The notes beneath the pieces were generated by a model. That model was given only the letters and a program-made list of their open reading frames with translations. It was not told the DNA's origin and did not search any database. This document shows positions 45,711-45,888 of a stretch of 64,000 bases of DNA, piece by piece. The position numbers were made by a program, and so were the translations under genes. Every line of letters begins with the position of its first letter. The first letter of the stretch is position 1. This DNA comes from Lama glama (Eukaryota): assembly GCA_028534125.1 (NCBI GenBank), contig CM052816.1, positions 15,378,001 to 15,442,000 of the forward strand, written 5' to 3'.

Positions 45711-45888
45711 CTGCTTTCTCCTCTAAGCCGCAAGCTCTGGCCACACCGGGCAAGGAGGAGCGTGGGAAAAGAAAGAAGAAAGGCAAGGGGTTAGGGAAGA
45801 AGAGAGACCCGTGTCTTCGGAAATACAAGGATTACTGCATCCACGGAGACTGCAAATATTTGAAGGAGTTCCGGGCTCCATCCTGCAT
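45711..45888 (+). CDS. HBEGF: HBEGF exon 3 (heparin-binding domain and N-terminal EGF domain)
   Basis: ctgcag| ... AT|gtaagt, 178 nt; KRKKKGKGLGKKRDPCLRKYKDYCIHGDCKYLKEFRAPSC. Confidence 0.98.

What the first reader, a model, noticed from the sequence alone, without database searches (positions are those of the whole stretch)
45833..45871. HB-EGF EGF domain has rodent-like residues at diphtheria-toxin contact sites (Y115, L124, F127, plus D120) but keeps E141
Seen: with numbering colinear to human (208 aa), exon 3 encodes DPCLRKYKDYCIHGDCKYLKEFRAPSC. Codons are Y115 tac 45833-35, D120 gac 45848-50, L124 ttg 45860-62 and F127 ttc 45869-71; E141 gaa is at 51181-83, and I133 and H135 are human-like. 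Established: proHB-EGF is the diphtheria toxin (DT) receptor. Human has F115/E120/V124/L127/E141, DT-resistant mouse has Y115/L124/F127/H141 (sequences recalled), and human-to-mouse mutagenesis implicates 115, 127 and 141 in toxin binding. Inference: four changes in 13 residues of a very conserved domain, three identical to mouse, suggest convergent partial DT resistance in an apparently camelid lineage. Camelids are known hosts of Corynebacterium pseudotuberculosis, a species in which some strains carry the tox gene.
Basis: partly seen in the sequence, partly recalled or inferred. Interest (0 to 1): 0.8.

Follow-up and report, generated by a model that had tools for sequence, protein, structure and literature searches.

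The report
Camelid HBEGF with four conservative substitutions
This is an intact camel-family gene for HB-EGF, the growth factor that diphtheria toxin uses as its receptor; its four unusual residues are real, but they sit at positions that change repeatedly in mammals, including toxin-sensitive guinea pigs, so toxin resistance is not indicated.

Summary
The window holds a complete five-exon, 208-codon HBEGF gene that is colinear with human. It reads Y115 (45833-35), D120 (45848-50), L124 (45860-62), F127 (45869-71), I133, H135 and E141 (51181-83). Exons 3 and 4 translate identically to Camelus ferus proHB-EGF. Whales, cattle, horse and carnivores carry F/E/V/L, so the four changes arose on the camelid branch.

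The resistance reading is weak:
- L124 plus F127 occur in guinea pig, and L124 in rabbit. Both species are diphtheria-toxin sensitive.
- Y115 arose about seven times independently among 71 taxa.
- All four sites are hot spots, with 6-9 parsimony changes each.
- 11 of 121 branches carry four or more EGF-domain changes.
- The excess on the camelid branch is not significant (4 of 13 changes against 125 of 1065 tree-wide, p about 0.06).
- Residue 141 is non-acidic only in murid rodents. Camelids keep E141, I133 and H135.

However, the pair Y115 + F127 is found only in camelid, Mus and a bilby. These are two of the three residues that papers call essential for toxin binding. A modest loss of affinity therefore remains untested.

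The most likely reading is an ordinary orthologue that still works as a toxin receptor.

The parts
42514..42559 (+). HBEGF coding exon 1 (start codon, signal peptide)
   Evidence: tblastn of whale and cattle proHB-EGF. GT donor at 42560.
42758..42931 (+). HBEGF coding exon 2 (signal peptide end and propeptide)
   Evidence: Three residues differ from Camelus ferus EPY89863.1 here.
45711..45888 (+). HBEGF coding exon 3 (heparin-binding stretch and first four cysteines of the EGF-like domain)
   Evidence: AG acceptor before 45711 and GTAAGT donor at 45889.
45833..45871 (+). The flagged 13-codon stretch: Y115 tac, D120 gac, L124 ttg, F127 ttc
   Evidence: Read directly. Residue numbering checked on the joined 208-aa product.
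51159..51314 (+). HBEGF coding exon 4 (last two EGF cysteines, I133 third base, H135, E141 at 51181-83, juxtamembrane K151, transmembrane helix)
52126..52198 (+). HBEGF coding exon 5 (cytoplasmic tail; TGA stop at 52196-98)
19260..29432 (-). Exons of an SLC4-family bicarbonate transporter gene, head-to-head with HBEGF (context only)
   Evidence: Of the 41 ORF translations scanned, 5 match Pfam HCO3_cotransp and 2 match Band_3_cyto, in order along the minus strand.

Best explanation
The window carries the intact orthologue of HBEGF in a camelid. Its EGF-like domain has four conservative, single-lineage substitutions: F115Y, E120D, V124L and L127F. All four lie at positions that flip back and forth across mammals. 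Everything that defines a working ligand and receptor is kept. This includes the six cysteines with correct spacing, G119/G137/G140, Y123, R142, the basic heparin-binding stretch, the transmembrane helix and the cytoplasmic tail. I133, H135 and E141 are also kept. The protein therefore most likely works as an ordinary EGFR/ErbB4 ligand and, as its membrane precursor, still binds diphtheria toxin, perhaps somewhat less tightly than the human protein. The substitutions are best read as ordinary turnover at tolerant surface sites, possibly coupled to each other, over the long camelid stem branch. They are not best read as an adaptation against the toxin. Shown here: gene structure, residues, derived state, recurrence elsewhere, and lack of significant excess. 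Inferred: retained toxin binding and neutrality.
For: Intact gene:
- Five GT-AG exons give 208 codons.
- The window product is 91.8-92.3% identical to full-length whale proteins.
- An SLC4-family gene lies upstream on the other strand.

Derived state:
- 13 of 71 taxa have an EGF domain identical to gorilla. They include primates, two whale entries (Balaenoptera, Kogia), horse, carnivores and two bats.
- Cattle and all whales have F/E/V/L.

Recurrence of each state among 71 taxa:
- Y115 in 18.
- L124 in 23.
- F127 in 7.
- D120 in 5.
- Parsimony changes per site are 115:8, 120:6, 124:9 and 127:8.

Sensitive species carry two of the three mouse-like residues:
- Guinea pig P0086 and degu P0032 have L124 + F127.
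- Rabbit P0004 has L124.
- Sensitivity of rabbit and guinea pig comes from PMC7261736 passages.

Other points:
- Non-acidic residue 141 occurs in 9 of 71 taxa, all murid rodents. E141K alone makes human cells resistant, and E141H is credited for mouse resistance (PMC7820243 passages; bioRxiv 10.1101/2024.08.26.609662 passage).
- The branch excess is not significant (p = 0.057 and 0.096), and 11 of 121 branches have four or more EGF changes.
- F115 corresponds to Y13 of EGF, so tyrosine is a native state for this fold (PMC3522611 passage).
Against: F115 and L127 are two of the three residues that papers call essential for HB-EGF-toxin interaction (PMC6913009 passages citing Mitamura 1997). The double state Y115 + F127 is rare. 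It occurs in 5 of 71 taxa: the camelid, three Mus species and the bilby Macrotis. None of these is known to be sensitive, and Mus is resistant.

Four changes inside 13 residues on one branch is at the upper end of what was seen. Only 11 of 121 branches carry four or more EGF-domain changes.

No Y115-bearing species in my set has a sensitivity record that I could find.

I could not read the primary mutagenesis papers. Mitamura 1997 is not held, and I recall Cha 1998 without having seen it. The size of the F115Y and L127F effects is therefore unknown to me.
Confidence: 0.62

Rival explanations
1. The camelid substitutions, above all F115Y with L127F, lower the affinity of proHB-EGF for diphtheria toxin. 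They were fixed because they gave partial protection against toxigenic corynebacteria, in convergence with mice.
For: Positions 115 and 127 are cited as essential for toxin interaction. The residues match mouse at 115, 124 and 127. The Y115 + F127 pair is seen only in camelid, Mus and Macrotis among 71 taxa. There are four changes in 13 residues on one branch. Dromedary camels are recorded hosts of C. ulcerans (PMC4802582 and PMC9693595 passages).
Against: F127 and L124 are natural in toxin-sensitive guinea pig, and L124 in rabbit. E141, I133 and H135 are kept. The sites are general hot spots and the excess is not significant. The host list of toxigenic corynebacteria is very broad and includes cattle, orca, dogs and cats, whose EGF domains are human-like. 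Toxin-producing C. pseudotuberculosis is 'isolated extremely rarely' (PMC9693595 passage). Even the full mouse set gives a low-affinity receptor rather than a null one (PMC8617309 abstract in listing; PMC7261736 passages).
Confidence: 0.15
2. The changes are a coupled set driven from inside the signalling system. This would be either structural compensation among residues 115, 120 and 127, or co-adaptation with the ErbB receptors whose binding face overlaps these positions. The toxin would play no role.
For: Changes at 115 and 120 fall on the same branch 4 times (8 and 6 changes in all), and likewise 120 and 127. Fisher p = 1.2e-4 for each, the two best of 105 pairs. The branches include a joint reversal in the bat Glossophaga. 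F115 corresponds to EGF Y13, and Y13 and I23 of EGF are named as crucial for EGFR binding (PMC3522611 passage). By the cysteine register, I23 aligns with residue 124 (my inference). An ant EGF-mimic peptide (7r6p) also pairs Y and D at the two equivalent places.
Against: The events are few. Bursts of change on a branch make all pairs co-occur. The tree was typed by hand and the reconstruction is parsimony. No ErbB sequence of camelids was examined.
Confidence: 0.18
3. The four codons are an assembly or sequencing artefact, or belong to a pseudogene copy.
Against: A second, separately annotated camelid record (Camelus ferus EPY89863.1) has the same exon 3 and exon 4 translation while differing elsewhere. 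Four runs of a study not flagged as a possible source hold 102 of 102 sampled words of the 1 kb around exon 3. The reading frame is open, the splice sites are canonical, and the expected neighbouring gene is present.
Confidence: 0.02

Closest known systems
Human proHB-EGF, the diphtheria toxin receptor (solved with the toxin as PDB 1XDT, chain R)
   Same: Same gene, same length (208 aa), same exon-encoded domains, and the same cysteine framework. I133, H135, E141 and R142 are identical. 52 of the 58 aligned exon 3 residues are identical (E = 9.8e-32).
   Different: F115Y, E120D, V124L and L127F in the EGF domain. E151K in the juxtamembrane stretch, which is shared with whales and cattle. There are further changes in the signal peptide and propeptide.
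Mouse proHB-EGF (P0104, NP_034545.1), the low-affinity receptor of a resistant species
   Same: Y115, L124 and F127.
   Different: Mouse also has R122, Q125, T129, K133, L135 and H141. The camelid keeps K122, K125, A129, I133, H135 and E141.
Guinea pig proHB-EGF (P0086, XP_012996694.1), from a classic toxin-sensitive species
   Same: L124, F127, H135 and E141.
   Different: Guinea pig has F115, E120 and V133.
Camelus ferus proHB-EGF model EPY89863.1 (P0003)
   Same: The exon 3 and exon 4 translations are identical to the window, including all four substitutions.
   Different: The public model is mis-spliced. It lacks exon 1 and the true last exon, and it inserts a pseudo-exon from intron 3 (window 49885-49986) and an alternative 3' piece (52556-52651). 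Three of 66 residues differ in the exon 2 region.

Membership tests
proHB-EGF (HBEGF orthologue) | EGF-like domain with six cysteines spaced C-x7-C-x4-C-x10-C-x-C-x8-C | tested here: met
   Read from the exon 3 and exon 4 translations. The same spacing is found in most of the 221 relatives fetched.
proHB-EGF (HBEGF orthologue) | Basic heparin-binding stretch directly before the EGF domain | tested here: met
   The stretch GKRKKKGKGLGKKRDPC in P0001 is identical to the human chain 1xdt_R.
proHB-EGF (HBEGF orthologue) | Single transmembrane helix and short conserved cytoplasmic tail, about 208 aa in all | tested here: met
   Exon 4 and exon 5 translations match whale and cattle proteins. The joined product is 208 aa.
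proHB-EGF (HBEGF orthologue) | The closest relatives are annotated proHB-EGF, and the expected neighbour gene is present | tested here: met
   All hits that carry an informative source name are called proHB-EGF, and the top hit is 100% identical. An SLC4-family gene lies head-to-head upstream. That the human neighbour is SLC4A9 is recalled, not tested.
Toxin-resistant (murine-type) HB-EGF | Non-acidic residue at 141 (H or Q) | tested here: not met
   The window has E141 (gaa 51181-83). Non-E141 occurs only in 9 murid taxa of 71.
Toxin-resistant (murine-type) HB-EGF | K/H/N at 133 and L at 135 | tested here: not met
   The window has I133 and H135.
Toxin-resistant (murine-type) HB-EGF | Y115 and F127 | tested here: met
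   Rat, also resistant, has L127, so F127 is not required for resistance.
Toxin-resistant (murine-type) HB-EGF | Measured low toxin affinity or high IC50 | not testable with these tools
   No data on camelid cells or on this allele were found.

The most novel reading that the evidence does not exclude
Camelid proHB-EGF is a naturally weakened diphtheria toxin receptor. The F115Y + L127F pair is otherwise seen only in Mus and a bilby. It would cut toxin affinity by an order of magnitude or more while leaving growth-factor signalling intact. It would also be one episode of a wider, undescribed pattern in which residues 115, 120 and 127 (and 136) of the toxin- and ErbB-binding face change together in bursts in separate mammal lineages: camelids, noctilionoid bats, marsupials and murids. 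That pattern would fit recurrent conflict with diphtheria-like toxins or other users of this receptor.
Probability: 0.12. Interest if true: 0.55.

Novelty: already known. Interest (0 to 1): 0.25.

Why it matters
If the allele did weaken toxin binding, it would be a second natural route to reduced diphtheria toxin sensitivity that does not touch E141. That would help dissect the receptor face and would bear on the veterinary reading of corynebacterial disease in camelids.

As the evidence stands, it is an ordinary orthologue. The useful outcome is a caution: 'mouse-like' residues at 124 and 127 are also the guinea pig state, so they cannot by themselves be read as resistance markers.

The co-variation of 115, 120 and 127 across mammals is a small lead of its own. 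I found no paper on HBEGF evolution in relation to the toxin in the searched library (full text of PMC Creative Commons papers and bioRxiv only).

Tried and rejected
Nothing was laid.
- Small shares of words. RNA and DNA runs of coded organism E and a 'horse metagenome' run hold shares of 0.06-0.14.
- Other camelid proteins. The correctly spliced 208-aa camelid entries are probably members of the 90% clusters represented by P0007 or P0011, since the window product is 91.8-91.9% identical to those. Only 15 members per cluster are listed, and asking through other members gave the same 15. Whether llama or alpaca share the changes was not determined.
- Primary mutagenesis paper. Mitamura 1997 is not held. 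Searches for Phe115/Leu127/Glu141 and for F115Y/L127F/I133K/H135L found no paper with substitution data.
- PASTMUS Table S6. It ranks residues 127, 120, 124, 141 and 115 as 7th, 14th, 18th, 22nd and 35th of 209. The scores rest on deletions, and nearly the whole EGF domain fills the top 36, so the table says nothing about conservative substitutions.
- 'Y115 is ancestral'. I first thought so from marsupials and squamates. The wider sample shows F115 in birds, turtles, alligator, echidna, caecilians and lungfish, so F is ancestral and Y is recurrent.
- Pfam on single exons gave nothing useful.
- Earlier findings of this scan: none for this genome or sequence.
- No complex prediction with the toxin was attempted.

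Full report
**What is in the sequence.** Reading 45700-46000 and 51100-51400 and translating gives exon 3 ending ...GKRKKKGKGLGKKRDPCLRKYKDYCIHGDCKYLKEFRAPSC. Exon 4 begins CHPGYHGERCHGLSLPVKNRLYTYDH and runs on into a transmembrane helix. A tblastn of whale and cattle proHB-EGF against the window, plus inspection of the junctions, gives five coding exons: 42514-42559, 42758-42931, 45711-45888, 51159-51314 and 52126-52198. All have GT-AG introns. They join to 627 nt, which is 208 codons plus TGA.

**Identity and lineage.**
- The exon 3 translation matches the solved human HB-EGF chain of the toxin-receptor complex, 1xdt_R, at E = 9.8e-32. In the part of the EGF domain that exon 3 covers, it differs only at F>Y, E>D, V>L and L>F.
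- In the large protein collection, 83 of 104 candidates scored E <= 1e-5. All hits with an informative source name are proHB-EGF. The best is Camelus ferus EPY89863.1 at 100% identity over the exon.
- That public model is mis-spliced. Its exon 3 and exon 4 parts are identical to the window, while 3 of 66 residues differ in the exon 2 region and 1 in a pseudo-exon from intron 3. The window is therefore a camelid, probably not the same animal or species as that record. I did not determine the species.
- Upstream on the minus strand (about 19.3-29.4 kb), 5 of the 41 ORF translations scanned match HCO3_cotransp and 2 match Band_3_cyto. This is an SLC4-family transporter gene head-to-head with HBEGF. 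It fits the arrangement I recall for the human locus and argues against a stray pseudogene copy.

**Is the sequence trustworthy?**
- Of 24 listed public runs, 14 hold all 102 sampled words of window 45300-46300. Ten of these are flagged as possible sources of the assembly. The other four belong to one study under one coded organism.
- Together with the separate C. ferus record, I rate an artefact as very unlikely.

**Are the residues derived, and how unusual are they?** I extracted the EGF domains of the relatives fetched (221 proteins in store).
- Gorilla, macaques, capuchin, horse, four carnivores, two bats and two whale entries have identical EGF domains. That is 13 of the 71 taxa used later.
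- Cattle and all whales have F115/E120/V124/L127, so the four camelid states arose on the camelid branch.
- My first impression that Y115 is ancestral was wrong. Birds, turtles, alligator, echidna, caecilians and lungfish have F115. Y115 recurs in marsupials, most squamates, frogs, murines, Acomys, Sorex, noctilionoid bats, Pipistrellus and the camelid.

**Parsimony count: method.**
- I took one named sequence per species, 70 in all, plus the window product.
- I left out unnamed entries, isoform duplicates, visibly mis-modelled records (P0003, P0008, P0022, P0051, P0072, P0077) and all non-mammals except alligator, ostrich and a tortoise as outgroups.
- I aligned these sequences and counted changes by parsimony on a species tree typed by hand from the accepted mammal phylogeny, with polytomies where I was unsure.

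**Parsimony count: results.**
- The camelid branch carries 13 changes. Four are in residues 108-143: F115Y, E120D, V124L and L127F. The whole tree carries 1065, of which 125 are in that domain. The one-sided binomial p is 0.057.
- Restricted to residues 63-208 it is 4 of 9 against 125 of 603, p = 0.096. Some terminal branches with poor models (Castor, Pipistrellus) inflate the non-EGF count, so even this modest excess is generous.
- Eleven of 121 branches have four or more EGF-domain changes. They include the noctilionoid bat stem, Glossophaga, Sorex, Tamandua, the marsupial stem, Macrotis and two murine branches.
- The domain is bimodal. Eighteen of 36 sites never change, and 14 sites carry 119 of the 125 changes. 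The camelid sites have 8, 6, 9 and 8 changes.
- F>Y at 115 arose seven times, V>L at 124 four times, L>F at 127 four times and E>D at 120 three times.

- Mouse P0104 indeed has Y115/L124/F127/H141.
- The pair Y115 + F127 is rare. It occurs in 5 of 71 taxa, namely the camelid, three Mus species and the bilby.

- Guinea pig (P0086) and degu have L124 + F127. Rabbit, pikas and squirrels have L124.
- PMC7261736 names rabbits and guinea pigs, with humans and several birds, as efficiently intoxicated, and mice and rats as insensitive.
- Rat, which is also resistant, has L127. So F127 is neither necessary nor sufficient for resistance.
- Residue 141 is non-acidic in only 9 of 71 taxa, all murid rodents.
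- A single E141K change makes human cells resistant, and E141H is the change credited for mouse resistance (PMC7820243; bioRxiv 10.1101/2024.08.26.609662). The camelid keeps E141, I133 and H135.
- Even the full mouse set gives a low-affinity receptor rather than none (PMC7261736 passages; PMC8617309 abstract in the listing).
- The ecological argument is weak. Camels are one entry in a long host list for C. ulcerans that includes cattle, pigs, dogs, cats, orca and hedgehogs. Toxin-producing C. pseudotuberculosis is described as extremely rare (PMC9693595 and PMC4802582 passages). Several of those hosts have a human-like EGF domain.

**Alternative drivers.**
- The positions concerned also belong to the growth factor's receptor-binding face. 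PMC3522611 equates F115 with Y13 of EGF and names Y13 and I23 of EGF as crucial for EGFR binding.
- By the cysteine register, I23 falls on residue 124. This is my inference.
- Tyrosine at 115 is thus a native state for this fold.
- On the tree, changes at 115 and 120, and at 120 and 127, fall on the same branch four times each. Fisher p = 1.2e-4, the two strongest of 105 pairs. The branches include a joint reversal of 115, 120, 127 and 136 in Glossophaga. This hints at coupled change, whether structural or through a shared binding face. It rests on few events and on parsimony.
- ProHB-EGF has also been reported as an entry receptor for phocine distemper virus (PMC4149546 abstract and passages). 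The toxin is therefore not the only conceivable outside pressure.

**Verdict.** The gene is an ordinary, intact HBEGF orthologue already present in public annotation. The four substitutions are conservative, derived in camelids, and lie at sites that turn over repeatedly in mammals. The inference of convergent partial resistance is not supported by the comparative data and remains untested. A modest affinity loss from the Y115 + F127 pair cannot be excluded. I found no paper on camelid HB-EGF or on HBEGF evolution against the toxin in the searched library. Subscription journals and unheld supplements may hold relevant data.

Noticed in passing
window 51211-51213 (K151 in ...LPVKNRLY...): The juxtamembrane residue that is E in 66 of 71 taxa is K in the camelid, cattle and the three whale entries. 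It looks like a shared cetartiodactyl change close to the ectodomain-shedding region.
   Followed up: partly
alignment of 71 HB-EGF sequences, residues 115, 120, 127, 136: These positions tend to change on the same branches: the camelid, the noctilionoid bat stem, the marsupial stem and Macrotis. The nectar bat Glossophaga reverts all four together. The 115-120 and 120-127 pairs each give Fisher p = 1.2e-4 among 105 pairs.
   Followed up: partly
window 49885-49986 and 52556-52651: The public Camelus ferus model EPY89863.1 (P0003) takes these intronic or downstream stretches as coding. It lacks exon 1 and the true last exon, so it is a mis-spliced annotation of 236 aa instead of 208.
   Followed up: yes
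window 19260-29432, minus strand: These are exons of an SLC4-family bicarbonate transporter (HCO3_cotransp and Band_3_cyto matches), oriented head-to-head with HBEGF.
   Followed up: partly
window 1974-2717, plus strand: An open stretch matches the reverse transcriptase family RVT_1 (E = 3.3e-10). It is presumably a LINE fragment.
   Followed up: no
P0001 against PDB entry 7r6p_A: An ant venom EGF-like peptide (U-myrmeciitoxin(02)-Mg1a) aligns with the exon. It shares the KDYCIHGDC stretch, so it has Y and D at the places equivalent to 115 and 120, the camelid pairing.
   Followed up: no
window 42407-42558: Several transcript-derived proteins of other mammals (245-aa forms such as P0035) start at an upstream ATG in frame with the main start.
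   Followed up: no
residue 141 across relatives: Besides Q/H in murines, the sand rat Psammomys has A141. All 9 non-E141 taxa of 71 are murid rodents.
   Followed up: no
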